Source: a virus | IMG/VR virus record: IMGVR_UViG_3300037851_000538 | Span: 1 to 64,000 of that record | DNA: 64,000 nucleotides | Strand: one strand, 5' to 3' | In this document: piece after piece, positions 16,147 through 52,300 of the stretch | Layout of the letters: the number at the start of each line of letters is the position of its first letter | Numbering within the stretch: position 1 is the first letter of the stretch | Translations under genes and position numbers: made by a program | Notes under the pieces: generated by a model | The model's database searches: none | What the model was told of the DNA's origin: nothing | Seen by the model: the letters and a program-made list of their open reading frames with translations, nothing else

Positions 16147-16148
16147 TA

Positions 16149-17095: not shown

Positions 17096-17099
17096 GTCA

Positions 17100-27146: not shown

Positions 27147-27230
27147 CGATTGATGTGCGTTTCTTTCCGAAGTAGGATTCGGTCAAAATGCTCTCTGCAT
27201 AGGCACTTTCAGGAAATCCAGGAGTTAGCT

Positions 27231-30200
27231 GTGGCTTATTACAATCCGACCGAGCCTTTCGAGACGATGAAGAAGCGTTTGAGCGAGACGGTAAAATCTC
27301 AGTTTCCTGTTGAGGGTCGTCGGCACACGTTAAGAGCGTCTAAGGTCTGGATTGAGGACGATAAGGCGATCACGGATATCCATTCTCAAGAAGAGGCTAA
27401 GCTCAAGGAGAGGTCTTGGACTGTCCCCATGAAGGCTCATCTAGAGCTCGTGGACAAAGAGACAGGAAAGGTCAAGGACCAGAAAGTCGTAGTGCTGGGA
27501 CAGCTGCCAAAGATAACTAATAGGTGGACTTACATCGTAGACGGACAAGAGCGCCAGATCGCGAACCAATTTCGTTTGCGCTCTGGGGTCTATACGCACG
27601 TCAGAGAAAACGGAGAACTAACCTCTCAATGGAACCTAGCCAAGGGTCTAGGATTCAATATGAATATAGACCCGTCTTCAAAGATTATGTCTATCACTTT
27701 TACCAATAAGGCGTCTAAGATACCCATATACTCTGTTTTGAAACTTATGGGTGTTCCTGACTCGGACATTGAAAAGTCCTTGGGTAAGGCCTTTTATGAA
27801 GCTAACAAGAACGTAAAGTCCGACAAGGTCGAAGAACTGTACCGCGCATTTAAGGGAACCCCCCCTCCCTCTAAGGAAGAGGCTAGGAAGGTTGTTCTTC
27901 AAGAGTTCGAGCGCATGGCTCTTCTTCCGGACACTACTAAAGTTACGTTGGGCTCTTCTTTTGAAAAAGTAAACGGAAGCTCTTTGTTGGCTGGAGCCTC
28001 TAAGCTGTCCAAAGTGTTTCGTAAGGAAGAAGATCCAGACGATAGAGACTCTTTGGTGTTCAAAGACCTATACTCGGCCGAAGACCTTTTAACGGAGCGC
28101 CTATCCAAAAAGAACGTAAAGGACATACAGAGGAAGATCCTCAACAACGTAGACAAGAAGTCTAGTGTTTCAGAGATCGTCCACCCTGATATTTTCGGCA
28201 AGCCTATTCGTCAGTTTTTCATTAGCCCTCTATCAGAGTTTCCAGACCAGCTTAATCCGATGAGCTACCTGTCTGGTAATCGGAGAACAACCATTCTGAA
28301 AGAGCATGGCATATCGGACCCCGTAATGATTTCTTTGGGGGCCAAGGCCATTAACCCTTCCCATATAGGGTTTCTTGACCCAATCCAAACTCCTGAGTCG
28401 GAAGCCCTAGGAGCGACTTTGCAGCTTGCTTTGGGGGTTAGGAAATCAGGACACAAAGTCTATATAAAGCTCCGAAACGTCAAGACCGGAAAGTACGAAG
28501 AGGTGGACGCGGCCAAAGCGCTGGGGACTACTTTTGCCTTTCCTGACCAAGTAAAGAAGACAGATAAAGGCCTGTTTCCCGTAGACAAGCTTATCAAAGC
28601 GAGTGACAAAAAGGGTAACATCGTTATGGTAAAGCCCTCGGAGGTCACTCATGTTTTGGACTCTCCTAAGGCACTGTTCGATTTCTCATCTAACCTGATA
28701 CCGTTCTTGCAGAACAATCAGGGCAATAGAGCTATGATGGCGTCAAAACAGCTCGAGCAGGCAATGCCCTTGAAGAATAGAGAGGAGCCTTTAATCCAGG
28801 TCAAAGAGGAGTCTGGTTCCACTTTTGAAAATATTCTGGGGCGTATAGCGGCCGCTCACGTTTCAAGAGTAGACGGGGTGGTTCAAAAGGTTACAGACAA
28901 GTCCATCTTTATCAAAGAAGACAAAACGGGTAAGCCCTATGAGGTAAAGCTCTACAACAATTTCCCCCTCAACAATGACAAGTCCTTAATACACTCTGAG
29001 CCTATAGTTAAGGTGGGGGACAAGGTTTCCAAAAACCAGCCGGTGGCCGATACCAACTTTTCCAAGAACGGCACCATGGCTTTAGGCACTAATTTGAGAG
29101 TGGCCTATATGCCGTGGAGAGGCTATAACTTTGATGACGGAATAGTTATCTCTGAATCCGCTGCCAAGAAGTTGACCTCCACTCATCTGTTTAGGGAGCA
29201 GGTGGCGCAGGAGAAGAATGTCATTCTGGACAAGAAAAAACTTTTAGCACACGTCGGGGCTACGGTTTCCAAGTCGTCAACAGATAAGCTGGACGATAGG
29301 GGGGTGGTTCAAGTAGGGCAGACAGTCTATCCTGGAGATATTCTTATTGGGGCCTTGAAGCACGAAGAAATAACTCCAGAACAGCGCCAGCTGGCTGTGT
29401 TCTCAAAGAAGCTCATAAAGCCAGTGAAGCCCAACCTGGTGACTTGGGACCGAGAGGTTCCGGGAACTGTAGTGCGCGTAGTCAAGCACGGTAAGAACAC
29501 TACAGTATACGTGAGGGCGGACGAGCCTGCAGACGTTGGGGACAAGATAGTAGGTAGGTATGGAAACAAGGGGGTAATAACAACAGTACTTCCAGACCAT
29601 GAGATGCCGTTAGACCAAGAAGAAAAGCCCCTGGAGGTTCTTCTAAACCCGTCAGGGGTTCCTTCTCGTATCAACATGGGGCAGATACTAGAGACTGCTG
29701 CCTCTAAAATAGCTAGAAAGACTAACACTCCGTACGTGGTCAACAACTTTGACCAAGACATTCCGGACTACACTAGACATTTGAAGGACGAACTTAAAAA
29801 GCACGGGTTATCGGACGTAGAGAATCTTAAAGACCCTTCTACGGGTAGGGTCTTTAAGGATGTTTTGGCCGGGGAGCAATACATACTTAAGCTGCACCAC
29901 ACCGCGGAGAAGAAGCTGTCTTCCAGGTCTAGAGATGCCTATGACTCTAATCTTATGCCTAGAGGTGGAGGGGATGCTAGCGGACAGAAGATGGACGCTA
30001 TGGGCCTTTACGCATTATTGGCTCACAACGCGCGGTCAGTGATTCGTGAAGCCCAGACTCAAAAGAGTGAGCGTAACGACGATTACTGGGCTGCGTTGCA
30101 GGCTGGAGACTCCTTGCCGGCACCTAAAGTGCCCTTTGTTTTTAAGAAGTTTGAAGGTTACCTGAAAGCCATGGGGCTGGACACCGTGAAGGAAGGCAAC

Positions 30201-33200
30201 CACCTCATTCTTCAGCCCTTGACCGACAAGGCCATTCTAAAAACCAGCGCAGGAGAGATTAAAGACCCCGGTGTCTCTTTTCAAGGCAGCACACTGAAGC
30301 CAGAAAAAGGAGGCATATTTGATCCGTCCATTACTGGAACTAAAGGCGCTGGTAAGTCTCTGGAGCTGGGAACAAACTGGGCTCACATCACTCTAGCGGA
30401 TAGAATGCCCAACCCTGTTTTCCAGAAGCCCATATCTAGTCTGTTGGGCATGAGCGGAACGCAGTTCAACGACGTTGTTAAAGGCCACTCTAAGTTAAAC
30501 GGGGCCACAGGTCCTGGAGCCATAGTCTCTGCCCTGAAATCCATAGACGTAGAAAAAAGACTGTCTGAATTGGAGTCTAAGCTGCGCTCCTTGCGCGGAA
30601 CTAAGTTGGATATAGCAAACAAGGAGCTGAAGTATCTGAGGGCTCTTAAATCCAGCGGCCTCAGCCCTCAAGAAGCTTACACTATAAAACATCTTCCGGT
30701 TCTTCCTCCCAATATGAGGCCAGTGTCAGTACAGGAGAACGGCGCTCTTGCCGAAGACCTTGTAAACAAAATGTACAACATGATTGGTAACACCAATTAC
30801 CAGCTCAAGACATTTGATCCGAAGGTACATCCGGAAGAGGAAGTAGCCGTTCCTTTGCGCGCAGAGCTGTACGACGGTCTTAAGGCGCTAATGCTGTTAG
30901 GCACCAAGGTGGCTAAGGGAAAAGAGTTTGCGGGTATTGCCAACATCATTTCCGGAGGCGGTTCCCCTAAAGAGGGGTTCTTTCAGGACAAGGTGATTGG
31001 AAAAAGGCAAGACCTGTCCATGCGAGGCACTATCATCCCAGAACCTTCTATGTCTTTGGACGAGGTTGGTATCCCTAGGAAGGCCGCTCAGGAGCTCTAC
31101 AAGCCTTTTATCATGTCTAGACTCATCCGGTCGGGGATCAGCCCAGCTCAAGCATTGAAAGAAATAAAGAACAACTCTGACATGGCCTTTATGGCGTTAC
31201 AGAGCGTACTGAACGAGAGGCCCATAATTTTGAAAAGAGACCCGGTTCTGCATAAGTACGGGGTACAGGCTTTTCGTCCTAGAATCATAGAGGGTAAGGC
31301 CGTACGCATTCACCCTCTGGCAACAAGCGGTTACAACGCTGACTTCGACGGTGACGCAATGAGCGCGTACGTCCCGGTCAGTTCAAAGGCGGTGGAGGAG
31401 GCTTTCAAGATGATGCCTTCTCACAACATCTTCAATCCTGCTACTGGAAACGTCATGTATAAACCGAGTCAGGAGTCCCTGTTTGGCTTATACAAGCTAA
31501 CTGAGATGGGTTCTGGCCCCGCTAAGAAGTTTTCTGGCCTAGACCAGTTGGCCAAAGCGACGATGGCAGGAGAAATTGATTTCAATACCCCTGTCAGCCT
31601 CAAGAGCATAGACAAAGACATATCCAAGTTGATCAAGATCGGAGCCCCCGAGGTAAAAACCACGGTAGGTCGGCTCCTTGTTTACAATGCCCTTCCAGAA
31701 GATTTGAGAGACCCGGCCATTCTGTCAGATCCTTCGTTTAAGATGACTTCTTCCAGTCTCAACAAGCTTCTAGGCGCAGTTGCCATTAAACGGCCCCACG
31801 ATTTTGGAAAAGTGGCAGACGCTCTGAAGAATCTTGGCAACGAATTTTCTACGGGTTCCTCGGTTGGCCTAGACGATTTTATTTCTCACAAGCACGACCG
31901 AGATAGAATTCTTCGGGAGGCTCGCGATCTAGAGAAGGCTATTACCGCCAAGGACAAAGACAAAAGGGAAGAAGAGACGATCAAGATCTACAACAAGGCT
32001 GGTGGTAAAATAGAGGAAGCAGCCTTGGGGTCTATCGAAAAGTCTAAGAACCGCATGTACGATTGGGTTAAGGCGGGTGCTAAGGGAAACTGGGACCAGT
32101 TTCGACAAATGGCAGTAGCACCCCTATTAGTGGTGGACTCTTACGGGAAGACAGTCCCGGTTCCTATCACCAAGTCCTATTCTGAGGGCCTGGACGTAGC
32201 TTCATATTGGGCATCAATGCACGGAGCTCGTATGGGAACTCTGAGTCGCGTGGAGGGTACATGGCGCCCCGGTCTTTTGAGCAAAGAGATCATGCAGGCC
32301 ACTATGGGCCAAATGGTGGTTAGCGAGGATTGCGGAACAGAAAAAGGCATATTGATGCCCATTGAGGACAAAAACGTCCTAAACCGATTTCTAAGTCAGG
32401 CCGTCTCCTTAGGCCAGAAGACCGGAAAGGACAAGGGGGTCCTGCCCGCAGGGACTCTGGTGACTCCAGATGTTCTAAATCGTCTAAGAAACAACAAAGT
32501 AACCGAGGTTCGAGTTCGTAGTCCTTTGAAATGCGCGCACGGAGAGGGGTTGTGCGCAAAGTGCTATGGGATTAACGAGAACGGAAAACTACATCAAAAA
32601 GGAACAAACGTAGGAGTCATCGCCTCTCAGGCTCTTGGGGAGCCTATGACGCAGCTGAGCATGAACTCTTTTCATACGGGTGGCATAGCCGGTTCCGTGG
32701 GCGCTAAAGCCACTAGCGTGTTTGACAGAATAGACCAGCTGACCAAGATTCCTAGTATACTTCCAGGATCTGCCGTCTTGTCCACCGCGGAGGGAGTAGT
32801 TAGCAGTATTTCTAAGGACCCGGCCGGCGGATGGTCGGTGTTTGTTGGAGGGGAAAAGCACTATGTACCCCCATCTCGGGAGATTGTTGTTAAGAAGGGC
32901 GACTCTTTGAAAAAAGGGGACGCTGTCTCTTCAGGAGTTAAAAATCCGAGGGACATACTTAGGCTACAGGGGATAGGCGCGGTTCAGAATTATCTTACGA
33001 CCGAGCTTGAGAAAAACTACGGAAAGGCCCAGACGCCCCTATTTAGACGTAACGTAGAAACATTTGTTCGATCCATGACCAACCTGTGCGAGGTGGTGGA
33101 CCCAGGAAGCCACGAGTCTTACGTGAAGGGAGACACTGCTCCCACGTCTGTCATCCTAGAGTACAACTCCAAAGCTTCTAAGGAGGGTAAAGCCCCCGTA

Positions 33201-33416
33201 AAGTTCTCTCCAATCCTCAAGAGCGTAGAAACTCTTCCTTTGGACATGCACGAAGACTGGGTGGCTCGCCTTCAGTCCCGTAGGTTGAAGTCTACAATAC
33301 TGGATGCGGCCGCCGAGGGGTGGAGGTCTTCGTTACACAGCACCCACCCTATACCAGCAATGGCGTACGGCGCAGAGTTTGGACAGGGAACTCCTGATAA
33401 ACCCTGGCTTTACTAG
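27231..33416 (+). CDS. rpoBC: Single-chain DNA-directed RNA polymerase, fused beta + beta' (bacterial-type two-barrel)
   Basis: beta motifs: IVDGQERQI, HIGFLDPIQTPE, LIPFLQNNQGNRAMM, YMPWRGYNFDD, GDKIVGRYGNKGV, NPSGVPSRINMGQ, YILKLHH. beta' motifs: LPVLPPNMRP, GKRQDLSMR, RDPVLH, NADFDGD, DCGT, RSPLKC..CAKCYG, GEPMTQLSMNSFHTGG. AGGAG RBS before GTG 27231. Confidence 0.95.
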   Translation: MAYYNPTEPFETMKKRLSETVKSQFPVEGRRHTLRASKVWIEDDKAITDIHSQEEAKLKERSWTVPMKAHLELVDKETGKVKDQKVVVLGQLPKITNRWTYIVDGQERQIANQFRLRSGVYTHVRENGELTSQWNLAKGLGFNMNIDPSSKIMSITFTNKASKIPIYSVLKLMGVPDSDIEKSLGKAFYEANKNVKSDKVEELYRAFKGTPPPSKEEARKVVLQEFERMALLPDTTKVTLGSSFEKVNGSSLLAGASKLSKVFRKEEDPDDRDSLVFKDLYSAEDLLTERLSKKNVKDIQRKILNNVDKKSSVSEIVHPDIFGKPIRQFFISPLSEFPDQLNPMSYLSGNRRTTILKEHGISDPVMISLGAKAINPSHIGFLDPIQTPESEALGATLQLALGVRKSGHKVYIKLRNVKTGKYEEVDAAKALGTTFAFPDQVKKTDKGLFPVDKLIKASDKKGNIVMVKPSEVTHVLDSPKALFDFSSNLIPFLQNNQGNRAMMASKQLEQAMPLKNREEPLIQVKEESGSTFENILGRIAAAHVSRVDGVVQKVTDKSIFIKEDKTGKPYEVKLYNNFPLNNDKSLIHSEPIVKVGDKVSKNQPVADTNFSKNGTMALGTNLRVAYMPWRGYNFDDGIVISESAAKKLTSTHLFREQVAQEKNVILDKKKLLAHVGATVSKSSTDKLDDRGVVQVGQTVYPGDILIGALKHEEITPEQRQLAVFSKKLIKPVKPNLVTWDREVPGTVVRVVKHGKNTTVYVRADEPADVGDKIVGRYGNKGVITTVLPDHEMPLDQEEKPLEVLLNPSGVPSRINMGQILETAASKIARKTNTPYVVNNFDQDIPDYTRHLKDELKKHGLSDVENLKDPSTGRVFKDVLAGEQYILKLHHTAEKKLSSRSRDAYDSNLMPRGGGDASGQKMDAMGLYALLAHNARSVIREAQTQKSERNDDYWAALQAGDSLPAPKVPFVFKKFEGYLKAMGLDTVKEGNHLILQPLTDKAILKTSAGEIKDPGVSFQGSTLKPEKGGIFDPSITGTKGAGKSLELGTNWAHITLADRMPNPVFQKPISSLLGMSGTQFNDVVKGHSKLNGATGPGAIVSALKSIDVEKRLSELESKLRSLRGTKLDIANKELKYLRALKSSGLSPQEAYTIKHLPVLPPNMRPVSVQENGALAEDLVNKMYNMIGNTNYQLKTFDPKVHPEEEVAVPLRAELYDGLKALMLLGTKVAKGKEFAGIANIISGGGSPKEGFFQDKVIGKRQDLSMRGTIIPEPSMSLDEVGIPRKAAQELYKPFIMSRLIRSGISPAQALKEIKNNSDMAFMALQSVLNERPIILKRDPVLHKYGVQAFRPRIIEGKAVRIHPLATSGYNADFDGDAMSAYVPVSSKAVEEAFKMMPSHNIFNPATGNVMYKPSQESLFGLYKLTEMGSGPAKKFSGLDQLAKATMAGEIDFNTPVSLKSIDKDISKLIKIGAPEVKTTVGRLLVYNALPEDLRDPAILSDPSFKMTSSSLNKLLGAVAIKRPHDFGKVADALKNLGNEFSTGSSVGLDDFISHKHDRDRILREARDLEKAITAKDKDKREEETIKIYNKAGGKIEEAALGSIEKSKNRMYDWVKAGAKGNWDQFRQMAVAPLLVVDSYGKTVPVPITKSYSEGLDVASYWASMHGARMGTLSRVEGTWRPGLLSKEIMQATMGQMVVSEDCGTEKGILMPIEDKNVLNRFLSQAVSLGQKTGKDKGVLPAGTLVTPDVLNRLRNNKVTEVRVRSPLKCAHGEGLCAKCYGINENGKLHQKGTNVGVIASQALGEPMTQLSMNSFHTGGIAGSVGAKATSVFDRIDQLTKIPSILPGSAVLSTAEGVVSSISKDPAGGWSVFVGGEKHYVPPSREIVVKKGDSLKKGDAVSSGVKNPRDILRLQGIGAVQNYLTTELEKNYGKAQTPLFRRNVETFVRSMTNLCEVVDPGSHESYVKGDTAPTSVILEYNSKASKEGKAPVKFSPILKSVETLPLDMHEDWVARLQSRRLKSTILDAAAEGWRSSLHSTHPIPAMAYGAEFGQGTPDKPWLY

Positions 33417-33426
33417 GACTTAGATA

Positions 33427-34524: not shown

Positions 34525-34536
34525 CAGGAGATACCT

Positions 34537-36555: not shown

Positions 36556-36566
36556 GGATTAGATCC

Positions 36567-37430: not shown

Positions 37431-37457
37431 CCCTCTTTTCCTCTAAGGCTCAAAACC

Positions 37458-37934
37458 ATGGACTGGTGTTCTAAAATCAAGGGTCTGATGGACAAGTGGG
37501 AAAATACTTCAGAAAAGTCTGCCACTCTAAAGCCCTTGGAAAAAAACGTGGTAGATTCTTTCAGCACTCATTTTTTGGAGTATGAGCTAAAGAAAGAAGA
37601 CTTATTGATTCACTTGTTCCCTAGAGCGGGTGGGTCGGATAGGTACTATCCCAGCTCCACATCCAAGGACGGTAAATACATTCCTGGTCGTTTAGAGGAG
37701 CCTGTAGATGGTCTATCCTTCCCGGAAAACGCTCTAGACTGCATAGAAAGAGCCGCGGAGTGCGTTTGGGCAGGTGATGTTACTGCGGATTACGTTCCAG
37801 AGCTTAAGTCCTACGCCGTTCAGTTTATTGGAGCCGCTAACACTTTATGTTCCGAGGCCTCGATGAGCTCTGGAGCTCTTTCCAAATTCATAGACTTGTT
37901 CTCGGAAGCCTTAGACAGAAATTTGGAGCCGTAA
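37458..37934 (+). CDS. Hypothetical protein
   Basis: 158-aa ORF; N-terminal SEKSAT. Confidence 0.55.
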   Translation: MDWCSKIKGLMDKWENTSEKSATLKPLEKNVVDSFSTHFLEYELKKEDLLIHLFPRAGGSDRYYPSSTSKDGKYIPGRLEEPVDGLSFPENALDCIERAAECVWAGDVTADYVPELKSYAVQFIGAANTLCSEASMSSGALSKFIDLFSEALDRNLEP

Positions 37935-37952
37935 CCCTCTCTGGAGTTTTAG

Positions 37953-40900
37953 ATGGGCCTCCTCTTGTTCTCTAAGCAGGCTTCAAGGATATCTGAGGCC
38001 GCATCCTCTTCAAAAAAGAACTCGTCGTATTTAGAAGAGGGCTATATTGGTCCGGGACTTCCTAAAAAGAAGGTATCGGACCTCCCTAAAGTAGACCTAC
38101 CCGAGCGTTGGGAATTTTCTGCCCATCCGCACGACGCTAAAAAAAGCGGCCTACACGTAGACGTTCGTCTGGGAGACCCCGTATCTGGCATAGCTCATTC
38201 ATTCGTTATTCCTAAGACAGACAAGCTTCCTGAACCCGGGTCTAATGTCCGGGTCATTCCAACCTTCGATCACAAGATACCGTACATGGATTTTACCGGT
38301 ACGATATCCACTCCGTACGGTAAAGGAGAAGTCATTCCTGGTCGAAGAGAGGTAGCAGAGGTCTATCATTCCACTCCAGAAAAGGACCCAGGCACCAAGG
38401 TCAGATTCAACCTATACTCAGGCTCTCATCCAGAAGAATTCGCTATACGAAAAGATGAGAGAGGCCGTTGGTATCTTCACAATAAGACCCAGACCAGAGA
38501 AAGACGGCCGGATATACCGGACTACAAGCCCAAGTACAAAGAGGTATCTGTAGATTCAATAGACCCTTCTGACGAATCCCAAGCCATGATGCCCAAGCTA
38601 GACGGAGCTCATGGGATAATAGATTTGAAGGCTGGTAGGTCTCCGAGAGTGTATTCTTACCGAGTGGGGGTCAAGACTCCTACAGGACTAATTGAGCACA
38701 CCCATAAGATACCAGAACTTCTAAAGACCAAAGTCCCTAAAGAGCTAGACGGAACTATTATACGGGCCGAGATATTGGGCAGAGACAAAGACGGTAAGGC
38801 CATTCCTGCTCAAGAGATTGGAGGACTACTTAACTCCAAAGTTTGGGAGAGCCGAAAGAAGCAAGAGCAGTCGGGGGTAAAACTGTGGGCTTTTCCATTC
38901 GACGTTGTGAAGCATAAAGGAAAAGACGTTTCCCATCTGCCTTTTGAGGACAAGGTCAAAATACTCAAAAAGGTAGAAGAGTCCTTTGGGCCTGTAGAAC
39001 TTCCTGAGATTGTTTCTGGAACTTTAGAGAAGATAGAGCTTTTGAACAAGATTCGTTCAAAGGCGCATCCTTTAACTGAAGAGGGTGTAGTTCTTATAGA
39101 CCCTAAAAAGCCCTCTGCTCCTATAAAGGCCAAGTTCTCTCCTGACTTCGATGTGTTCGTTAGGGATATACACCCGGCCATCAGCGGAAAGACTGGAGAG
39201 AAGCATGATAGGGCTGGGTCAATCAGTTATTCCTGGACTCCTAATGGCCCGATAGTTGGCCAGCTTGGTGGTTTCTCTCATGGAGAAGCCAGAGAGATGA
39301 TTAAGAACCCGGACAGGTACATTGGCCGAGTCGCAAAGGTGAAGGCTATGAAAGTGTTTAAGTCGGAGTCCGGAGATCCGGGAGCTTTGTTTCAGCCTCG
39401 GTTCAAAGAGTGGCACTTGGACAAGGGCGACATCGAAAAGAGCTCAGCGGCTTCTATGCTGACAAAGGTTTCAGAGATGAAGAAAAAGGCAGATAACTCC
39501 AGTCTGAAAAAAGACGTGTCTCTCTACGACCATCAGAAAAGAGCTATTGAAAAGGTAAAGAGCCACGATGGCAATCTTATCCTTAGCCACGGAACTGGTT
39601 CTGGAAAGACCCTTACTGCGATAGCTGCCTTTGAATCTCTTCGTGAAGACGGAAAAGCCACTAAGGCCCTGGTTGTTACTCCAGCTTCTTTGAGGGCTAA
39701 CTTTATAGACAACGGGGTCAGGAAGTTTACTACTTCTAGGGCATCTATCATTGGAAATAGCGAGGAAGCTAAAAAGGGCATAGCTCGTTCTTTAGACGAT
39801 CCCGATCCTGGTTCTAGGTACCATGTCATCTCCTACGAGATGTTTTCCAAAGACCCTGAAAAGGCGATCAAGGCTACTGGGGCAGATACGGTCATTTATG
39901 ACGAGCTTCACCGAATTCGTAACGATCAGGGGGTGACATACAAGACCATTAAGGACGCCAGGAAGCACCACAGGAACTTCATAGGTCTTACTGGGTCTTT
40001 GATGAACAACACTCCTGCGGATTTGGTCCCTTTAGTTGACGCTATGACGGATGGCAATCACCGTCTTGGGACCAAGGCCCGTTTCGAGACTCGTTTTATT
40101 TCTGAGTCTAAGGGGGGTAAGAAGATAAACAAACCGCAGGTGGTGAAAGCCCTGCTCAACCCATTTGTAGACCATTTTGAAACCAAAGACCTCTCCGACG
40201 CCAAAATGCCTAAAAAAGTGGTGGAGGAAGTCAAAGTGATGATGAGCCCCTATCAAGAGGAGCTATATCGTTACGTGGTCAACAAGATGGATCCTATTAC
40301 GGCCATCAAGTTCCGTTTGGGAACTACTAAGCTGAAGACGCACGATATCAGCAACATCTTCTCTCAGATAATTCAAGCCCGGCAGGTATCTAACTCTCCG
40401 CACACCATAGACCTGAGTCTTCCTATCCAGGATGCTCCAGACAAATCCCCCAAGGTAAAGAAATTGCTAGATGATGTAGAAGAGCATCTCAAAGAGACTA
40501 GCGATGGTCAGGTGGTTATTCACTCTAACCTTATTAAGGGTGGCGTGGATGTTCTATCAGAGGGTCTTAAGCAGAGGAACATTCCCTTCTCGACCTTTGT
40601 AGGTAAAGGGCAGCCGGGAGTAACAGAGGACAAGAGGCAGAAGGGGGTAGAGGAATTCAATTCTGGGAAGAAGCGGGTGATAGTCATATCCGCTGCGGGA
40701 GGGGAGGGGTTAGACCTTAGAAACGCTACTATGTTTGCTGGGCTCGACGGCCATTTCAACCCAGAGAAAGTTAATCAGGCCGAGTCTCGGGCCGTACGAG
40801 CTGGCGGACTTTCTCATAGGCCTGAAGAAGACCGGAGAGTAATAGTAAAGAGATACGTGAGCGTGGTTCCTAGGTCTATAACCCAGACCCTATTGGATAC

Positions 40901-41750
40901 CTCTGAACTGATATCACCATCTGCGATATTCAAGCGGGTATCTACCCCCGGGACTCCTATTTTCTACAACCCTTTTAAGAGGGAAAGGTCCCCTGACGAG
41001 TGGATGTCCGAAGTTGCATCCAATAAGGATATCCTCAACAAGCAGTTTAGAGAGCAGTTAAAGACATCTGCCGCCGACGAATTTGTTCCTGTGGACTATG
41101 TTTTGGAGTCAATGTCCGGGTCATTACTTAAAGTAGCGAAGTTAAACTCTTTTTGTGAGGAGCTCGAAAAAATATCCTCGGCCGCTAGTAGTAGGATACC
41201 ATATCAGCCCTACAGGTTCGTCAAGTCCGACCACCACATCATGTCCCATTACTGGGACAAGTTAGGCCCCGAGGTGGAGAAAATGGACGACCCCTACACT
41301 GAAGAACTTAGTAAAAAAGAGGACCAGATAGAGGAACAAAAACACGTTGAAGCCTTGAGAGCGTATTATCGAGAAGCGGCCAAGTCCCCTCCTGGCACTA
41401 TGTCTGCTAAAAATCCCTTATCGGATTCTGAGTACCTTAAACCTCTTCTTTTGGGTTCGGCTGCTGGAGGGGCTGTAATGGGTATTCCTTTGTCCATGAA
41501 CGCCATTGAGGTTTTTGAGCCTAAGACTTTGAAACATACTTTGGGGATCGGGGCGGCTGCTGTTGGTGGAACAGCTCTTTTGAGCGCCGGGTTGGCGTAT
41601 CACATGGCCAGGAAAAACCCCTCGTTTACTACCGCTAAGTCCAAGGCCAAAAAGCTACATAAGCTCCCCGATCAAGATCTTAGGGCCATGCTGCGCGGGC
41701 TTTCCATTAAGGAAGAGGTTGTTAAAACCACTGAGCATTACATCAAATAA
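37953..41750 (+). CDS. Multidomain protein: LigD-type 3'-phosphoesterase + ATP-dependent DNA ligase + SNF2 helicase + Gly-rich C-domain
   Basis: PE: HDAKKSGLHVDVRL, SFVIPK, FDH..YMDF.G.I..PYGKG.V. Ligase: PKLDG, FPFDVV, EEGVVL, KAK, QPRFKEWHLDK. SNF2: HGTGSGKT, YDELH, LTGSLMNN, GGEGLDL, QAESRAVR. Confidence 0.88.
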   Translation: MGLLLFSKQASRISEAASSSKKNSSYLEEGYIGPGLPKKKVSDLPKVDLPERWEFSAHPHDAKKSGLHVDVRLGDPVSGIAHSFVIPKTDKLPEPGSNVRVIPTFDHKIPYMDFTGTISTPYGKGEVIPGRREVAEVYHSTPEKDPGTKVRFNLYSGSHPEEFAIRKDERGRWYLHNKTQTRERRPDIPDYKPKYKEVSVDSIDPSDESQAMMPKLDGAHGIIDLKAGRSPRVYSYRVGVKTPTGLIEHTHKIPELLKTKVPKELDGTIIRAEILGRDKDGKAIPAQEIGGLLNSKVWESRKKQEQSGVKLWAFPFDVVKHKGKDVSHLPFEDKVKILKKVEESFGPVELPEIVSGTLEKIELLNKIRSKAHPLTEEGVVLIDPKKPSAPIKAKFSPDFDVFVRDIHPAISGKTGEKHDRAGSISYSWTPNGPIVGQLGGFSHGEAREMIKNPDRYIGRVAKVKAMKVFKSESGDPGALFQPRFKEWHLDKGDIEKSSAASMLTKVSEMKKKADNSSLKKDVSLYDHQKRAIEKVKSHDGNLILSHGTGSGKTLTAIAAFESLREDGKATKALVVTPASLRANFIDNGVRKFTTSRASIIGNSEEAKKGIARSLDDPDPGSRYHVISYEMFSKDPEKAIKATGADTVIYDELHRIRNDQGVTYKTIKDARKHHRNFIGLTGSLMNNTPADLVPLVDAMTDGNHRLGTKARFETRFISESKGGKKINKPQVVKALLNPFVDHFETKDLSDAKMPKKVVEEVKVMMSPYQEELYRYVVNKMDPITAIKFRLGTTKLKTHDISNIFSQIIQARQVSNSPHTIDLSLPIQDAPDKSPKVKKLLDDVEEHLKETSDGQVVIHSNLIKGGVDVLSEGLKQRNIPFSTFVGKGQPGVTEDKRQKGVEEFNSGKKRVIVISAAGGEGLDLRNATMFAGLDGHFNPEKVNQAESRAVRAGGLSHRPEEDRRVIVKRYVSVVPRSITQTLLDTSELISPSAIFKRVSTPGTPIFYNPFKRERSPDEWMSEVASNKDILNKQFREQLKTSAADEFVPVDYVLESMSGSLLKVAKLNSFCEELEKISSAASSRIPYQPYRFVKSDHHIMSHYWDKLGPEVEKMDDPYTEELSKKEDQIEEQKHVEALRAYYREAAKSPPGTMSAKNPLSDSEYLKPLLLGSAAGGAVMGIPLSMNAIEVFEPKTLKHTLGIGAAAVGGTALLSAGLAYHMARKNPSFTTAKSKAKKLHKLPDQDLRAMLRGLSIKEEVVKTTEHYIK

Positions 41751-41797
41751 CGACTCAAGAAACGAATCGTAGAGGGCCTTTCGGCACGAAAAAGATT

Positions 41798-43190: not shown

Positions 43191-43518
43191 GAAAATGTCT
43201 TCCTTTCGTATAGACTTCTGCTTTTATGCCCGAATCGGATATGTTGATGATTGGAACCTCGCAGTCATACATCTTGGCCCAGATCCGTATGTACTGCCTA
43301 AGAGGTGTTCTAGTGTTTTTGGACAAAGGTCTTTTGAGACTGGCTTCCAGAAAAAACTTTAGGGGGTCACTGGTGGGTAACGCTTTGAAGGTAGGGTCTA
43401 TGACATCATCTCCTACGGCGGCTAGGATTCCTTCTCTGGCCTTTTCTATCCATTCTAGCCTTCTTCTAACTACGTCTCTTTGGTAGTTCATAGGGTGCAT
43501 TATGCAAGTTAGCTTCAA
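43177..43518 (-). CDS. Hypothetical protein (true start probably near 43500)
   Basis: Co-oriented with and overlapping rnhB. Confidence 0.5.
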   Translation of the reverse strand: MKLTCIMHPMNYQRDVVRRRLEWIEKAREGILAAVGDDVIDPTFKALPTSDPLKFFLEASLKRPLSKNTRTPLRQYIRIWAKMYDCEVPIINISDSGIKAEVYTKGRHFHGHV

Positions 43519-45307
43519 ATCCTGTCCATATGACGTCTACGATTGCGAAGATAACGACACCACCAAGTCGGAGTCTTTATACCAAGAAGACATACAGATT
43601 TTAGAGTCTACGTCCCTGATACCAGCGACACCGTCTCAGTTTGTAGAGTTCGCCGTCTTCATTCCAGAAAAAGGTCGATTGGAAAGGTTCAACTTTGCAA
43701 AACGTCCGTATCTAAGAGCCATATACGACACCCCCACCAAGAGGAGACTTCTGCTCGCTGGACGTCAGGTCGAGAAAAGTACACTTTTAGGTAATACCTG
43801 CCTCACCTACTCAGCTATGAACCCGTTTTTCAGAACCTTGTACGTCAGCCCGTCTAATCAGCAGACTAAGGTGTTTAGTAGAGACCGTATCAAGGAGCCC
43901 ATTAACATATCTCCCGTACTTAAGACGTTTACGGACTCTAGACTACTAGACAATGTCTTGGAGAAGTCTTTCACCAACCAAGCCAAAATCATTCTTCGAT
44001 TTGCCTTTCTGAATGCTGACCGCGTTCGAGGTAATCCTGCTGACCTAGTTATGATCGACGAGTTTCAGGACATTGTTCTGGATAATGTCCCGGTCATTGA
44101 GGAGTGCGCGTCTCACTCGTCATGGAAGATGTTTCTTTATAGTGGGACTCCTAAGTCCTTGGACAACACCCTTGAGTATTACTGGAGCAGATTCTCTACG
44201 CAGAACGAGTGGGTGGTTCCTTGTAAGAGACATGGACTTCCTAGCAGTCCGGGAAGTTGGCACTGGAACATACTAGACGAGGACAATATTAGCCCGTCAG
44301 GTCTCATATGCGACAAGTGCGGTAGCCCTATTCATGCAGACGACCCAGACTGCTGTTGGATGGCTTTGAATCCAAAGCCGCGTGTAGAAAAGCCATATGA
44401 GGGATACAGACTTCCTCAGATTATGGTCCCTTGGGTAGATTTCTCTGACATTGCAGACAAGCAGCGTAAGTATTCACGAGCCAAATTCTACAATGAGGTT
44501 CTTGGTAGAAGCTATGACTCTGGAACTCGTCCTCTGACCCGTCAGGACGTATTTCAGAACTGCCGAGAAGATTTGTCGATGGAGTATTACCATCTAGTCG
44601 AGCAGCTATCGACATCATACCCCATATTCTTGGGCGCCGACTGGGGATCTGGAGAGAATACTTACACAGTGATATCTTTGGGCGGATACCTTCCTTTTGA
44701 CCCAGAGCACTTCACATATTTTTATCTAAAGAGGTTTGAAGGTGTAGAGTCCGACCCCCAGTTTCAGATCAAAGCTATCAAAGATCTGGCGCGAAGGTTC
44801 AATGTTAGGTTTATTGGCGTAGACTACGGAGGAGGTCATTGGCCTAACGACGAACTGGTTCGGGAGTTCGGCGCTGAGAAGATAAAGAAATACCAGTACG
44901 TCGGAAACGTAAAGAAAAAGATAGCGTTTGAACCGCGTTTGGGAGTTCCTCGGTACCTGTGTCATAGAACCGAAGTTATGTCTGACGTTATGAACGCTGT
45001 GAAAAGGGCTAACGTCTTTCGCTACCCTAGGTGGGAAGAGTTTGAAGACCCATTCGGCATGGACTTCTTGAACATCTTTTCCGAGTATAACGACCGCCTA
45101 CGTATGAACGTGTACCGGCATGCCCCGGGCATGACAGATGACTCTTTTCATTCGTGCCTGTATTGTTTTTTGGCGTCGTTCTTTTACAAGCCTCGACCGG
45201 ACGTCATTCTTCCGACTCGAGAGGTTGATCGTTCTCGGAAGGTTCAGGAGACTCGGGACGCCTACGAGGGGGCGGAAGATTCCATGGACGATCTTGACGT
45301 TTCATAG
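43502..45307 (+). CDS. terL: Terminase large subunit (lambda gpA-like)
   Basis: RPYLRAIYD, Walker A-like AGRQVEKST, DRVRG..ADLVMIDE, SGTP, Zn finger C..H/CDKC, nuclease LGADWG and DDSFHS. Confidence 0.88.
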   Translation: MQVSFKSCPYDVYDCEDNDTTKSESLYQEDIQILESTSLIPATPSQFVEFAVFIPEKGRLERFNFAKRPYLRAIYDTPTKRRLLLAGRQVEKSTLLGNTCLTYSAMNPFFRTLYVSPSNQQTKVFSRDRIKEPINISPVLKTFTDSRLLDNVLEKSFTNQAKIILRFAFLNADRVRGNPADLVMIDEFQDIVLDNVPVIEECASHSSWKMFLYSGTPKSLDNTLEYYWSRFSTQNEWVVPCKRHGLPSSPGSWHWNILDEDNISPSGLICDKCGSPIHADDPDCCWMALNPKPRVEKPYEGYRLPQIMVPWVDFSDIADKQRKYSRAKFYNEVLGRSYDSGTRPLTRQDVFQNCREDLSMEYYHLVEQLSTSYPIFLGADWGSGENTYTVISLGGYLPFDPEHFTYFYLKRFEGVESDPQFQIKAIKDLARRFNVRFIGVDYGGGHWPNDELVREFGAEKIKKYQYVGNVKKKIAFEPRLGVPRYLCHRTEVMSDVMNAVKRANVFRYPRWEEFEDPFGMDFLNIFSEYNDRLRMNVYRHAPGMTDDSFHSCLYCFLASFFYKPRPDVILPTREVDRSRKVQETRDAYEGAEDSMDDLDVS

Positions 45308-45602: not shown

Positions 45603-45654
45603 ATGTTAGCGTTTGAATCAATCTTTTGTGGGTCATCAACAATGCGAGGCCGAA

Positions 45655-49323: not shown

Positions 49324-52300
49324 ATGATTACCAAGCTAGCGACTTTTCGAGGGGTATCTACGGACGGGGAGCCCCTGGTAAGGGTCTTTCATCCCGGCGA
49401 CTCTATCAAAAAGGTTGCTGGCGTTTTGATGCCAGATGTTCAGAACTGGCTATCATCCTATAAAAAGCAAGACGGAAAGATAGCTGTTCTAGTCAACGCG
49501 ATGGGCGCTTCAGAGTACTGGGGTCAAAACATCAACGGCGACATATTCTACGAGTCGTCGTTGATCCACGACTGCCGTCGACACTCTAGCGTAGCTCATC
49601 CTATCGACGACTTTACCGGTAAGACCATTCCTCCTTACGGGTACTGGACCTTTTTGAACGCGTTGCCCTACGTTCACCATAAAAACAAGGACCCTAGCCG
49701 CGCCTTTGGAAAAGTCGTAGTGGCGTGCTGGAATCCTAAAATGCGTCGGGTAGAGATCGTGGTCATCTTAGACCGAGCTCTAGCCATGCAACATGGGGCA
49801 CAGGGCGTTATAGACAGGATAGACGCCGGAGAACACCCAGATGTTAGCATGGGATGCCTGCCTGCCGGTTCTCGTATTCTTATGGGGGACGGGTCTATTT
49901 CCGCTATAGAGTGCATTAGAGAAGGCGATTACGTCATTACGCACAGAGGGAGACCCAATAAGGTTACCTCTGTTATGCAGAGGAAGACCTCTGAGACTTT
50001 ATACAGCATAAAGGTGTATGGGTTCTCTAGGCCTCTGGAATTAACTGGAGAGCACCCCCTGTGGCTTGTTCGTGGTGATCAGTTAGAGTGCTCTCCGTCT
50101 CCTAAAAAAGCTAATTCCGGAAGGAAACAAAGACACTGCACTCCTTTCGTTAAGGAATCCTCGAAGGGGTGTGCTGGATGTCTTACGGTGCCCTCTTTTC
50201 AATTCCAGTGGACTCGGACAGACCAGGCTGAGGTTGGAGACTATTTAGCCTTTCCCATTCCTACCCAAGTGGTAGACACAGTTTCTTCAAAAGAAGAGGC
50301 CGAGTTTCTTGGGTACTACCTAGCCGAAGGGTTCGTCAAGAAATACAACTCTGAAAAAGAGCAGATTGTATTCTGCCTCGGTCTGGACGAGGTAGAGCTA
50401 TCTTTAAGAATTGAAAGCCTAGCTCGGCAATTAGGGTCTCTTGTAGTCTGGCATAACGAGGACCCCGAAGGCGGTGGAAGATACGTTAACGTGGTTAGTA
50501 AGCGGCTAGCAGACCGATGTATCGAGTTCTGCGGAAAAGGTGCTAAGTACAAAAGCCTTTCTTCTGACATCGTATATATGTCACCAGACCTTCAGCTTTC
50601 GTTCCTCGGAGCTTATTTGGACGGGGACGGCGGATCTTACAAAGGGTCTGCATATTTTTCTACGGCCTCTGAGGAGCTTGCCAATCAACTATTTGTGATT
50701 CTGTCTCGTTGCGGAATCATATCTTCAGTAAATAGAATTAGGCACTATCCGTCCAAAAACTCAGTCGTTCAGAAAGAAACTGTAGAGTACCAGGTGTGGG
50801 TAGGAACGGACTTTGCCCACCTGCTCGCTCCTTATACTAGAAAGCCTGTAGGTAAGTCTCTTAAGATTAGGGGCCAGAGATTTTTCTACGAGGACGACTC
50901 TGGTCGGTACATCCTGTCTCCTATTTTAGAGATCAAAGAAGACCCAGACTACGATAACTACGTTTACAATTTCTCTGTAGAGGAAGATGAAAGCTATGTC
51001 GCTGAGGGTCTGGCCGTGCACAATTGCCGGGTTCCGTACGACCGTTGTTCTCTTTGCAACAAGAAGAGCAAGACTAGGAACGACTACTGCTCTTGCCTTA
51101 AAGAGGTGGGAGTCAACAAGATTCTAGATGATGGTCGTCAGATCGGAATGATCAACGACTACCCACGCTTCTTTGACATCAGCTTCGTCTTTATCGGGGC
51201 GGATAAGACGGCGAAGATGATGTGCAAGCTGGGGTCCGCGTCTTCTAACATCCCCCAATCGGTGTTGGATGCGGAGTACATTTATGGAGAGTCAGACGAG
51301 TTAGTTAAAGCAGCTTCAAGTTTGGATAAAGAGAAAGATGCAGACTACGACCTGCTTAAGAGGGTTTTTACGGGAGCCGCTATTGGTGCTTTAGGGGGGG
51401 CTGGTTATCACGCTCTTAAAGGACCGGTTTCAGCAAACATCCCACTGGTAACTAGGAGCCAGGCTTTGGACAACAAGGGGATTGACCCAGTTTTTGAGGC
51501 TGGCAAACGTCTAACGGAAGATTCTCCTCGTCAGGCAGCCGTATCTCGATCTTCTAAGGCATGGCGGAGGGGTAAAAATATACCTATTTCTGGGATGGAC
51601 GTTAGGGTTTATAGAGGGCAGTTCGTAGCAGAGGTGTCTCCCGATGGACGAGTAGATGTAGCAGGGAGAAAAGCCCCTGTTGTCGTAGAGGGATCTTTGC
51701 CTAAAGGGTGGACGCCTGAATCTTTGAAAACAAAAATCCAAAAGCACGTAGATGAGCACCTGTTCCAGATAGGCGACTCTGGGAGCCCCGTAAAAACTTC
51801 TGCAGGAAGTATGGCCTTAGTGAAAGAGGCTTACGAGTCGCAGGACTATTCAAGACGCGGGGGCAAGATATACTCCGACATTGTCACCAATCGCCCCGAC
51901 ATTGCTGAAGGCTGGAAGTCTAGAGGATTAAATCCGAAATGGTCTGAAGAGGGTTATTGGGAGGTTTCTGAAGAGGTAACAGACCCCCAAGAGCTTCAAA
52001 GCGCTAGTAAGTATGTTTCCGAGATGGAAAGACTCTCTAAGCGCATGTTTAGGGGCTACAACATCGCGGGTTCAACTGCCGCGGGGGCCACCATGGGTGG
52101 TCTTCTAGGGGCCGCCGCGTCTCGTAAGAAACCAATTATCGCTGCGGGGGCGGCATTGGGGGCCGTGGGTGGTGGTCTTCTAGGGAACAAACTTGCTGAA
52201 GCTAATGACCCGGACATTGCTCTTCGTGACTTGGTCAGAAAAGGCCCACCCATAAAGCTCTACGTAGGGAAAAACGATACGCAAGATACTCCCGGACGTT

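What the first reader, a model, noticed from the sequence alone, without database searches (positions are those of the whole stretch)
37953..41750. LigD phosphoesterase + DNA ligase + SNF2 helicase in one ORF inside the virion module
Seen: an N-terminal LigD-type 3'-phosphoesterase (~38100-38490), a KxDG ATP-dependent ligase with OB domain (~38560-39430), a full SNF2 helicase (~39510-40860) and a Gly-rich tail, joined by K-x-[AS] linkers after an SKQAS leader. Known: LigD PE heals 3'-phosphate/ribonucleotide ends in bacterial NHEJ and normally works with Ku; no Ku is visible in this window. Inference: a head-packaged end-healing/sealing kit that could circularise the incoming genome or repair restriction/Cas cuts before any phage gene is expressed.
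Basis: partly seen in the sequence, partly recalled or inferred. Interest (0 to 1): 0.85.

Follow-up and report, generated by a model that had tools for sequence, protein, structure and literature searches.

The report
Phage end-repair ligase fused to DNA motor
A large uncultured freshwater phage encodes one 1,265-residue protein that joins a DNA-end-cleaning enzyme, a DNA ligase and a SNF2 DNA motor, in a swappable gene slot among its head genes, so it is probably carried in the virus particle, though no experiment shows this.

Summary
ORF 37953-41750 (+) is one intact 1,265-aa gene. It contains a LigD-type 3'-phosphoesterase (PE) with all six catalytic residues, a complete ATP-dependent DNA ligase, a Rad54/ISWI-like SNF2 ATPase, and a conserved tail with a Gly-rich hydrophobic hairpin.

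- It is not a LigD/NHEJ system. There is no Prim-Pol domain and no Ku, and the ligase is nearer to archaeal/Lig1-type ligases.
- The gene fills a variable slot just upstream of the terminase. In two complete ~200-kb relatives, that slot holds PE-ligase alone or SNF2-tail alone.
- PE-ligase is a large, uncharacterised, mobile module: 574 cluster representatives at E<=1e-30. SNF2 is its commonest partner (13 of the 45 longest members), in either order.
- In the nearest cultured phage, Salmonella phage Arash, the SNF2 homologue is an abundant virion protein.
- Module ends carry K-x-[A/S] motifs far more often than background.

My best reading is a "polyvalent" virion-cargo protein with a new domain set. 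Packaging, cleavage and substrate are all inferred, not shown.

The scan has noted similar fusions on at least 8 other genomes.

Verdict: new variant of a known kind; interest 0.6.

The parts
37953..41750 (+). Whole ORF, 1265 aa plus stop (P0001)
   Evidence: homologue P0002 has the same architecture
37953..38084 (+). N-terminal leader, aa 1-44. It is a low-confidence helix followed by a disordered stretch, and contains FSKQAS. Close relatives have L-S-K-[LI]-A-[AS] here.
   Evidence: AF2 pLDDT 38-56 over aa 1-40; relatives' N-termini
38085..38492 (+). LigD-type 3'-phosphoesterase (PE) beta-barrel, aa 45-180. Catalytic residues H60, H68, D70, R72, H107, Y111.
   Evidence: catalytic residues of MbaPE/CkoPE from PMC3082917
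38538..39431 (+). ATP-dependent DNA ligase, nucleotidyltransferase plus OB domain, aa 196-493. Contains K215 (KxDG), E273, E377-G378, K392/K394, and ends with ...FQPRFKEWHLDK.
39432..39512 (+). Junction 1, aa 494-520, containing EKSSAAS. It is disordered at the model ends.
39513..41057 (+). SNF2 (Rad54/ISWI-like) two-lobe ATPase with its C-terminal helices, aa 521-1035. Walker A G549-T553, DExH D650-H653, motif VI Q942/R946/R949. Ends in ...LKTSAA.
41058..41189 (+). Junction 2, aa 1036-1079. Low-confidence linker with the leader-like box SFCEELEKISSAAS.
   Evidence: pLDDT below 50 at model residues 539-579; motif scans; conserved in SNF2-tail homologues
41190..41747 (+). Conserved C-terminal tail, aa 1080-1265: a helical part (VKSD..IM..YW, YYREAAK), a Gly/Ala-rich hydrophobic helical hairpin (about aa 1158-1221, nt 41424-41615), and an invariant LRG near the end.
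   Evidence: no Pfam, atlas or window paralogue
27150..33416 (+). Context: 2088-aa single-chain beta+beta' RNA polymerase, 4.5 kb upstream in the same strand block.
43502..45307 (+). Context: large terminase, 1.75 kb downstream. It bounds the variable slot on its downstream side.
49324..55419 (+). Context: 2031-aa polyvalent protein with an intein, DUF5661, Gly-zipper and InPase domain.
59232..60356 (+). Context: major capsid protein candidate.
   Evidence: phrog_2522, E 7e-8

Best explanation
The gene encodes a polyvalent phage protein made by fusing two independently mobile modules that compete for one variable slot in the head/packaging operon.

Module 1 is a PE-ligase 'heal and seal' unit. 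It has a Mn-type 3'-phosphoesterase that should remove 3'-phosphates or 3'-ribonucleotides, followed by an ATP-dependent DNA ligase that seals the resulting 3'-OH/5'-P nick.

Module 2 is a SNF2 double-strand-DNA translocase with its own conserved tail, which ends in a hydrophobic Gly-rich hairpin.

The protein is most likely made late, loaded into the capsid with the other large cargo proteins (the single-chain RNA polymerase and the 2031-aa InPase protein), and delivered with the genome. It may be cut at the K-x-[A/S] junctions. In the newly infected cell, PE-ligase would repair nicks or breaks in the single incoming genome copy, and the SNF2 motor would act on the same DNA.

Shown: the domains, the intact catalytic residues, the slot synteny, the modularity, the recurrent fusion, and the virion presence of a 29%-identical SNF2 homologue in phage Arash.

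Inferred: packaging of this protein, cleavage, timing, substrate and biological role.
For: Domains and active sites:
- establish the three enzyme modules.
- H60, H68, D70, R72, H107 and K215 are invariant in 34 homologues.

Slot and synteny:
- In 7 of 7 related loci the flanking genes are conserved. These are the homologues of w37458 upstream and of w42652/w43003/TerL downstream.
- The slot holds PE-ligase with or without variable extensions in 6 loci and SNF2-tail in 1.

Accessory nature:
- Complete relative G001 has PE-ligase in the slot plus a second ATP ligase 95 kb away, and no SNF2-tail.
- Complete relative G006 has SNF2-tail and no ligase.

Recurrent coupling:
- SNF2 occurs in 13 of the 45 longest PE-ligase family representatives.
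- Both domain orders exist: P0020 and P0071 have SNF2 first; P0011, P0002 and this ORF have PE-ligase first.

Polyvalent behaviour:
- Other partners are NUDIX 4, GNAT 3, SET 1, HD 1 and DUF5661 1 of 45. A J-domain with Gly-zipper occurs in L007.
- The neighbouring 2031-aa protein carries InPase and DUF5661. The InPase domain also occurs on a solved portal protein, 9b41.

Virion evidence:
- Arash Gp217 is the best cultured-phage match of this SNF2 (E 6e-50 pairwise) and does not match the replication-block helicase.
- It gave 38 unique peptides and 1148 spectra. RNAP beta' gave 40/1210 and the capsid protein 30/1333. Two other Arash helicases gave only 2 peptides each (PMC10585845, Table 2 passages).

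Junction motifs:
- K-x-[AS] lies within 14 aa after the ligase end in 47 of 66 members and within 14 aa before the module in 57 of 91.
- The background is 9.8% of 2820 random windows.

Intergenic gaps of 18 and 47 nt, with no promoter or terminator excess, fit co-transcription with the neighbouring genes.
Against: - No data show that this protein, or any PE-ligase, is in a virion.
- Arash is distant: TerL is 31% identical and the SNF2 29%. Arash has no PE-ligase. Its proteome lists 116 proteins, including ribonucleotide reductases, so it is not very selective.
- The EK.[AS][AS] motif is also enriched in the replication block: 5 observed against 0.6 expected. Part of the signal may therefore be compositional.
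- The junction counts come from homologues and are not independent.
- The leader-like box is rare: 3 hits in the window and 3 in the complete genome G001.
- No prohead protease was identified.
- The hydrophobic hairpin is only borderline for a membrane span (Kyte-Doolittle maxima 1.41 and 1.64).
- Restriction and Cas cuts leave 3'-OH ends (recalled), so they would not need a 3'-phosphoesterase.
- No 5'-kinase is present.
Confidence: 0.55

Rival explanations
1. The protein is an ordinary intracellular enzyme that is not packaged. It would be a late-expressed recombination/repair protein that heals and seals nicks in replicating or concatemeric DNA before packaging. The SNF2 part would act like Rad54/UvsW alongside the phage UvsX-like recombinase. 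Its position among head genes would be incidental.
For: - The SNF2 is closest to SsoRad54 among solved structures (1z63, E 9e-18).
- The phage encodes a UvsX-like recombinase and a Cas4-like exonuclease.
- Iyer et al. 2021 propose that jumbo-phage SNF2 helicases substitute for UvsW (PMC7824862, passages).
- A nick-free genome is needed for packaging, and the gene lies next to the terminase.
Against: - G001 already has a separate ATP ligase elsewhere.
- The module is swapped in and out of a hypervariable slot. It is fused to J-domain, Nudix, GNAT, SET and Gly-zipper modules that have no role in recombination.
- The replication block has its own SNF2-type helicase.
- The Arash homologue is abundant in virions.
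- The hydrophobic tail is hard to explain for a soluble repair enzyme.
Confidence: 0.25
2. The SNF2 part is chiefly a cofactor of the virion RNA polymerase, like RapA or the poxvirus early-transcription ATPases. It would be co-packaged to start, recycle or terminate early transcription on the incoming genome. PE-ligase would be an unrelated passenger fused by chance.
For: - In Arash the SNF2 gene directly follows the beta' gene, and the two proteins have near-equal spectral counts.
- Iyer et al. 2021 report an RNAP-linked SNF2 in group 1 jumbo phages and suggest a RapA-like role (PMC7824862).
- Giant-virus 'early transcription factor 70 kDa subunit' models rank 4 and 22 among viral fold matches.
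- The RNAP gene lies 4.5 kb upstream.
Against: - Complete relative G001 keeps the RNAP (55% identical) but has no SNF2-tail, so the polymerase does not need it.
- RapA is not among the PDB matches at E<=1e-5.
- SNF2 is the commonest fusion partner of PE-ligase, in both orders, which argues for a link with PE-ligase rather than chance.
Confidence: 0.12
3. It is an RNA-repair kit. PE would remove 3'-phosphates from tRNA or mRNA cut by host anticodon nucleases or HEPN RNases, and the ligase would reseal them, in analogy with T4 Pnkp plus Rnl1.
For: PE enzymes act on 3'-ribonucleotide and 3'-phosphate ends (PMC3082917). Heal-and-seal logic is established in phages (PMC7824862, passages on RNA repair).
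Against: - The ligase has the DNA-ligase OB domain and its best matches are DNA ligases.
- There is no 5'-kinase or 2H/cyclic phosphodiesterase domain.
- SNF2 motors track double-stranded DNA (PMC5512222).
Confidence: 0.05

Closest known systems
Polyvalent proteins of phages and conjugative elements (Iyer, Burroughs, Anand, de Souza, Aravind 2017, PMC5512222), with P1 DarB as the archetype
   Same: It is a large multi-domain protein encoded with head/packaging genes. Its domains are shuffled between relatives and it includes a SNF2 ATPase. A neighbouring protein carries the InPase and DUF5661 domains typical of this class. DarB is a head component that protects incoming DNA (passages).
   Different: There is no DNA methylase, which is the usual SNF2 partner there. 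The PE-ligase pair is not mentioned in that paper: 'LigD' occurs 0 times and 'ligase' 3 times, the one occurrence seen in the passages shown concerning ATP-grasp RNA ligases. It is also absent from the 2021 jumbo-phage survey, where 'LigD' occurs 0 times. Supplements were closed, so their tables could not be checked.
Bacterial LigD (Ku-LigD non-homologous end joining) and stand-alone archaeal PE enzymes (PMC3082917)
   Same: The PE fold has all six catalytic residues and sits directly N-terminal to an ATP-dependent ligase, as in Pseudomonas LigD. As in archaea, no Ku is present.
   Different: There is no Prim-Pol domain and no Ku. The ligase profile is closer to archaeal/Lig1-type ligases (E 4e-10) than to M. 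tuberculosis LigD ligase (E 1.5e-3). The gene is phage-encoded, lies in the head operon, and is fused to SNF2 and a hydrophobic tail.
Salmonella phage Arash Gp217 (PMC10585845)
   Same: It is the best cultured-phage homologue of the SNF2 module. It is encoded in the structural block near the RNAP genes and is abundant in virions.
   Different: It has 472 aa with no PE-ligase and no tail, is only 29% identical, and its gene directly follows beta'.
T4 internal proteins and Alt with the capsid-targeting sequence and gp21 processing; phiKZ inner-body proteins (recalled, not read here)
   Same: The proposed logic is the same: a short N-terminal or junction peptide shared by unrelated head-module proteins, removed by the prohead protease, with enzymes injected alongside the DNA.
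   Different: The motif is different (K-x-[A/S], F-x-[DE]-E-[LMI]..K). No protease was identified here, and neither cleavage nor packaging has been shown.
Mycobacteriophage Omega/Corndog Ku, which recruits host LigD to circularise the genome (recalled, not read here)
   Same: A phage uses NHEJ-type end joining on its own genome at entry.
   Different: Those phages carry Ku and borrow the host ligase. This phage carries the PE-ligase and has no Ku.

Membership tests
LigD 3'-phosphoesterase (PE) superfamily | Eight-stranded beta-barrel with the six active-site residues (2 His + Asp for Mn; Arg + His for phosphate; Tyr) | tested here: met
   H60, H68, D70, R72, H107 and Y111 align to MbaPE H36, H42, D44, R46, H78 and Y82. 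Five are invariant and Y111 is >=90% conserved in 34 homologues. The profile hits 3p4h at E 4e-27. AF2 predicts beta-strands at aa 51-177 with pLDDT above 90.
Bacterial LigD (NHEJ ligase D) | ATP-dependent ligase domain (NTase + OB, motifs I-VI) | tested here: met
   K215 is invariant. E273, E377/G378, K392/K394 and the RF..WHLDK end are conserved. The fold matches T4, archaeal and Lig1 ligases.
Bacterial LigD (NHEJ ligase D) | Prim-Pol polymerase domain | tested here: not met
   No Pfam hit in P0001. PF21686 is absent from G000, G001 and G006.
Bacterial LigD (NHEJ ligase D) | Works with Ku | tested here: not met
   PF02735 is absent from G000 (42% complete) and from the complete relatives G001 and G006. 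A host Ku cannot be tested because the host is unknown.
Bacterial LigD (NHEJ ligase D) | Ligase domain of the LigD clade | tested here: inconclusive
   Profile E-values are 4e-10 to archaeal ligases and 1.5e-3 to Mtb LigD ligase 1vs0. No tree was built.
SWI2/SNF2 ATPases | Two RecA-like lobes with Walker A, DExH, motif III and motif VI, plus SNF2-specific helical inserts | tested here: met
   PF00176 at E 3e-23 and PF00271. GxGKT, DExH, TGS and Q..R..R are invariant in 20 homologues. 1z63 matches at E 9e-18. The model core has pLDDT 85-95.
Polyvalent proteins (Iyer et al. 2017) | Two or more unrelated effector domains in one phage polypeptide, with combinatorial domain variation among relatives | tested here: met
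Polyvalent proteins (Iyer et al. 2017) | Encoded with portal/terminase/head genes | tested here: met
   TerL is 1.75 kb downstream, the capsid gene and an InPase protein are in the same strand block, and synteny holds in 7 of 7 loci.
Polyvalent proteins (Iyer et al. 2017) | Packaged in the capsid and delivered with the DNA | not testable with these tools
   The only evidence is by analogy with Arash Gp217.
DarB-like antirestriction proteins | DNA adenine methylase coupled to the SNF2 helicase | tested here: not met
   No methylase domain. The phrog_10089 hit is weak (E 1.7e-4) and covers only the helicase N-lobe.
T4-type capsid-targeted, protease-processed cargo | Shared targeting/cleavage peptide on head proteins and a prohead protease that cuts it | tested here: inconclusive
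   Junction motif enrichment. Leader-like box: 3 hits against 0.3 expected in the window and 3 against 0.8 in G001, with 5 of the 6 at residues 9-16. The minus block is also enriched for EK.[AS][AS], and no protease was found.
RapA-like RNAP-associated SNF2 | Specific similarity to RapA and obligate linkage to RNAP | tested here: not met
   RapA is not among the 35 PDB matches at E<=1e-5. G001 has the RNAP without SNF2-tail.

The most novel reading that the evidence does not exclude
The protein is an injected DNA-entry-and-repair machine. After the head protease cuts it at the K-x-[A/S] joints, the SNF2 motor stays anchored by its Gly-rich hairpin at the membrane or ejection channel and reels or clears the incoming double-stranded genome. 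The freed PE-ligase heals 3'-blocked nicks and seals them before any phage gene is expressed. PE-ligase would then be the first DNA ligase known to be delivered inside a virion, and the founding member of a large family (hundreds of clusters) of capsid-borne heal-and-seal enzymes.
Probability: 0.12. Interest if true: 0.85.

Novelty: new variant of a known kind. Interest (0 to 1): 0.6.

Why it matters
Phages are most exposed when a single genome copy enters the cell. Known injected proteins include polymerases, methylase-helicases such as DarB, and ADP-ribosyltransferases. A virion-borne 3'-end-healing enzyme plus DNA ligase would add direct repair of the incoming genome to that list.

The PE-ligase module found here is common in uncultured large phages (574 cluster representatives at E<=1e-30). 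I did not find it described in the papers I searched. It offers a compact, Ku-independent PE-ligase for biochemistry.

The variable slot next to the terminase is also a practical place to look for new phage cargo or counter-defence domains.

Tried and rejected
- **Close phage relatives:** megablast found none. tblastn found only partial SNF2 or ligase matches, with 0 of 48 records covering 80% or more of the query.
- **LigD/NHEJ reading:** rejected. There is no Prim-Pol domain and no Ku.
- **DarB-like reading:** rejected. There is no methylase.
- **Defence-system models (PADLOC):** only generic SNF2 matches such as DpdE and ZorD, so uninformative.
- **Tail (aa 975-1265):** no atlas hit, no paralogue in the window, and no Pfam family.
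- **Prohead protease:** searched for in the 2031-aa protein and its relatives. None was found, only InPase, an intein and DUF5661.
- **Promoter/terminator scan of 33000-46000:** no excess over shuffles.
- **tRNA scan of the window:** none found.
- **Prokaryotic genome collection:** 164 pattern matches, none confirmed as a relative, so no host lead.
- **Protein searches of relatives' records** returned nothing and have no internal control. I rely instead on the family searches, which did have positive controls.
- **The 672-aa neighbour (34537-36555):** no match in Arash.
- **Strict leader regex:** too strict, with 2 hits in G001. Replaced by a looser one.
- **Sequencing runs:** no RNA holder listed.
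- **Literature:**
  - 'LigD + phosphoesterase + bacteriophage + SNF2' gave 1 paper, apparently unrelated by its title and abstract.
  - 'DNA ligase / virion proteome / packaged / jumbo phage / ejected' gave 3 papers, none seen to describe this (listing only).
  - Weinheimer & Aylward 2020 (PMC7481178) has 0 mentions of ligase, helicase, virion or SNF2.
- **Supplements** of all papers were closed. The tables of Iyer et al. 2017 and 2021 might list such architectures.

Full report
**What is there.** The window is part of an IMG/VR virus record of 84,367 bp. The record is linear, and CheckV estimates it to be 42% complete. Complete relatives are 192-202 kb with terminal repeats. ORF 37953-41750 on the + strand is open for 1265 codons.

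Pfam finds the following in the ORF:
- LigD_N at aa 58-129 (26.7 bits, below the 31.1 cut-off)
- DNA_ligase_A_M at aa 214-385 (27.6 bits against a 26.2 cut-off)
- SNF2-rel_dom at aa 539-817 (E 3e-23)
- Helicase_C at aa 840-951

PHROGs agree, with phrog_114 (ATP-dependent ligase) at aa 213-493 and phrog_62 (helicase).

**The two weak N-terminal hits are real.**
- A phmmer search of aa 1-500 hits the archaeal PE structures 3p43 and 3p4h.
- A profile of 34 stand-alone homologues (A1) hits 3p4h at 4e-27, 3p43 at 3e-22 and Pseudomonas LigD PE 3n9b at 4e-17. It also hits archaeal DNA ligases at 4e-10, Chlorella-virus ligase and human Lig1. It hits M. tuberculosis LigD ligase only at 1.5e-3.
- H60, H68, D70, R72 and H107 are invariant, and Y111 is at least 90% conserved. 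They align with the six residues shown by mutagenesis to be needed in MbaPE and CkoPE (PMC3082917, passages read).
- The ligase lysine K215 is invariant. The other nucleotidyltransferase and OB motifs are conserved (motif names recalled).
- An AlphaFold2 model of aa 1-500 has pLDDT 88.9 and pTM 0.79. Its best PDB fold matches are T4 DNA ligase, archaeal ligases and Lig1.

**The SNF2 part.**
- It has invariant Walker A, DExH, motif III and motif VI residues in 20 homologues.
- Its closest solved relatives are SsoRad54 (1z63, 9e-18) and ISWI.
- It models well, with the core at pLDDT 85-95.

**The end of the protein.**
- After about aa 1035 comes a low-confidence linker (model residues 539-579).
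- A conserved helical tail follows. It includes two Gly/Ala-rich hydrophobic helices and a conserved C-terminus.
- The tail has no known family.

**Surroundings.**
- The minus-strand block 3265-20168 encodes replication and recombination functions: DNA polymerase, primase, a DnaB-like helicase, a UvsX-like recombinase, a Cas4-like exonuclease and a second SNF2-type helicase.
- The plus-strand block from 20300 onward holds a 2088-aa single-chain beta+beta' RNA polymerase, a weak baseplate-like protein, the ORF under study, the large terminase, and a 2031-aa protein with an intein, DUF5661, a Gly-zipper and an InPase domain. It also holds a capsid-protein candidate.
- The gaps to the neighbouring ORFs are 18 and 47 nt. 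There is no excess of promoter-like or terminator-like sites.

**Relatives and modularity.**
- Word-seeded search found 91 proteins at E<=1e-3 among 8000 scored candidates. Only P0002 (73% identical, 99% coverage) shares the whole architecture. P0011 has PE-ligase-SNF2 without the tail. Most others match either the SNF2-tail part (about 59% coverage) or the PE-ligase part (about 40%).
- An exhaustive phmmer search of aa 1-500 against 1.84 billion representatives found 1157 proteins at E<=1e-3 and 574 at E<=1e-30. In the 150 listed, aa ~32-493 usually match as one unit. That unit lies at the N-terminus, inside, or at the C-terminus of proteins of 205-1682 aa.
- I scanned the 45 longest PE-ligase family members against Pfam. 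They were chosen from 91 members of at least 640 aa that I held. The other 46 were left out because of the residue limit. Results: 13 carry SNF2, 4 NUDIX, 3 GNAT, 2 AAA_18, and 1 each SET, HD and DUF5661.
- Both domain orders occur.

**Synteny.** In 7 of 7 related loci the flanking genes are conserved. Between them lies one of the following:
- PE-ligase alone: 504 aa in the complete genome G001.
- PE-ligase with different C-terminal extensions (L002-L005, L007). The L007 extension has a Gly-zipper and a J-domain.
- SNF2-tail alone: 767 aa in the complete genome G006.

Family searches with positive controls confirm the picture:
- G001 has only the replication-type SNF2.
- G001 has a second ATP-dependent ligase elsewhere.
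- G006 has no ATP-dependent or NAD-dependent ligase at all.
- None of the three records has Ku or LigD Prim-Pol.

The window's gene is therefore a fusion of two accessory modules that otherwise alternate in one variable slot.

**Evidence on packaging.**
- The nearest cultured phages by terminase are Salmonella phage Arash (31%) and three ~187-kb Vibrio phages.
- Arash Gp217 (472 aa) is the best cultured-phage match of this SNF2: E 2e-36 by tblastn and 6e-50 pairwise. It does not match the replication-block helicase.
- Its gene directly follows the RNAP beta' gene inside the structural block.
- In the published virion proteome it gave 38 unique peptides and 1148 spectra, against 40/1210 for beta' and 30/1333 for the capsid protein. 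Helicases Gp193 and Gp197 gave 2 peptides each (PMC10585845, text and Table 2 passages).
- That proteome lists 116 proteins, and the authors themselves note possible carry-over.
- The InPase domain of the neighbouring giant protein matches the C-terminus of a solved portal protein (9b41_L, E 9e-18). This shows that such domains do sit inside capsids.
- Iyer et al. 2017 define polyvalent proteins, predict that about 35% of them are phage proteins likely to be packaged in the capsid, and cite DarB as a head component (PMC5512222, passages).

**Junction motifs.**
- Across the family, K-x-[AS] lies within 14 aa after the ligase end in 47 of 66 members that continue for at least 30 aa. It lies within 14 aa before the module in 57 of 91 members with at least 12 aa upstream. 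The background is 9.8% of 2820 random 14-aa windows.
- These are homologues, so the counts are not independent. Diverged clades do use different sequences, such as DIEK-x-A, PELMKE-[GSA], GKQAS and EKTSA.
- In close relatives the next module often starts with an F-x-D-E-L-x-K-I-A box. The same box is found near the N-terminus of some separately encoded SNF2 proteins.
- EK.[AS][AS] is enriched in the head block (11 observed against 2.0 expected). It is also enriched in the replication block (5 against 0.6), where the hits are not at domain borders.
- The leader-like box is rare: 3 hits against 0.3 expected in the window and 3 against 0.8 in G001. Five of these six start at residues 9-16 of their ORF.
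- No protease was identified. Cleavage is therefore plausible but not shown.

**Reading.** The best-supported view is a polyvalent virion-cargo protein with a domain set not yet described: a Ku-independent PE-ligase heal-and-seal unit, a SNF2 DNA motor, and a hydrophobic tail.
- The recurrent PE-ligase/SNF2 fusion in both orders suggests the two act on the same DNA. They are nevertheless separable.
- The rivals are an unpackaged late repair/recombination enzyme, an RNAP cofactor role for the SNF2 part (Iyer et al. 2021), and RNA repair.
The relevant lesions would be 3'-phosphate or 3'-ribonucleotide nicks, whose source is unknown.

**Earlier notes of this scan.** Other agents reported PE/ligase/SNF2 fusions or operons with the same cargo reading on at least 8 other genomes. 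I reached the same class independently. New here are the Arash proteome link, the slot alternation in two complete genomes, and the partner census. In the papers I could search and read, I found no description of this PE-ligase cargo family. Supplements were closed.

Noticed in passing
window 49324-55419 (+): This 2031-aa protein has an intein near its N-terminus: Hint at aa 177-246, LAGLIDADG_3 at 423-479, and the splicing domain at 530-567. It also has DUF5661, a Gly-zipper and an InPase (PF18823) domain. Aa 1-200 are 65-73% identical in relatives that lack the intein. No protease family was detected, contrary to another first-reader note.
   Followed up: partly
L004:18529-21456 (relative of window 49324-55419): Its InPase domain matches residues 629-751 of a solved portal protein (PDB 9b41 chain L, 'gp19 Portal', E 9e-18). 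This polyvalent-protein domain therefore occurs fused to a portal inside a capsid.
   Followed up: no
window 27150-33416 (+): A single 2088-aa chain carries both beta (Rpb2_6, Rpb2_3) and beta' (Rpb1 domains 1-5) parts of a multisubunit RNA polymerase, encoded among structural genes. In Arash the homologous subunits are the most abundant virion proteins by spectra.
   Followed up: partly
L007:10049-12205: A relative's PE-ligase continues into a Gly-zipper and a DnaJ J-domain (PF00226, E 2e-4). P0018 shows the same with an HPD motif. A J-domain as phage cargo would imply hijacking of host Hsp70.
   Followed up: no
P0022, P0041, P0059, P0070 (relatives): Some SNF2 or PE-ligase homologues carry LAGLIDADG or intein-type homing endonuclease domains (PF14528, PF03161). 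Selfish elements therefore target these genes as well.
   Followed up: no
window 3265-20168 (-): The motif EK.[AS][AS] is also over-represented in the replication block (5 observed against 0.6 expected from shuffles), at places that are not domain borders. This weakens the idea of a head-specific 'K-x-A/S code'.
   Followed up: partly
window 23469-24200 and 63141-63998 (+); G001 52328-53022 and 147774-148037 (-): Small or medium ORFs start with an F-x-[DE]-E-[LMI]...K-x-[AS] box at residues 9-16. This is the same box that lies inside the studied protein at aa 1067-1079.
   Followed up: partly
window 45613-47199 (+): The 528-aa protein after the terminase has no portal family match. Its N-part (aa 30-112) resembles Arash gp220, a mass-spectrometry-detected 'structural protein' (E 6e-7). 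The portal gene of this phage was not identified.
   Followed up: no
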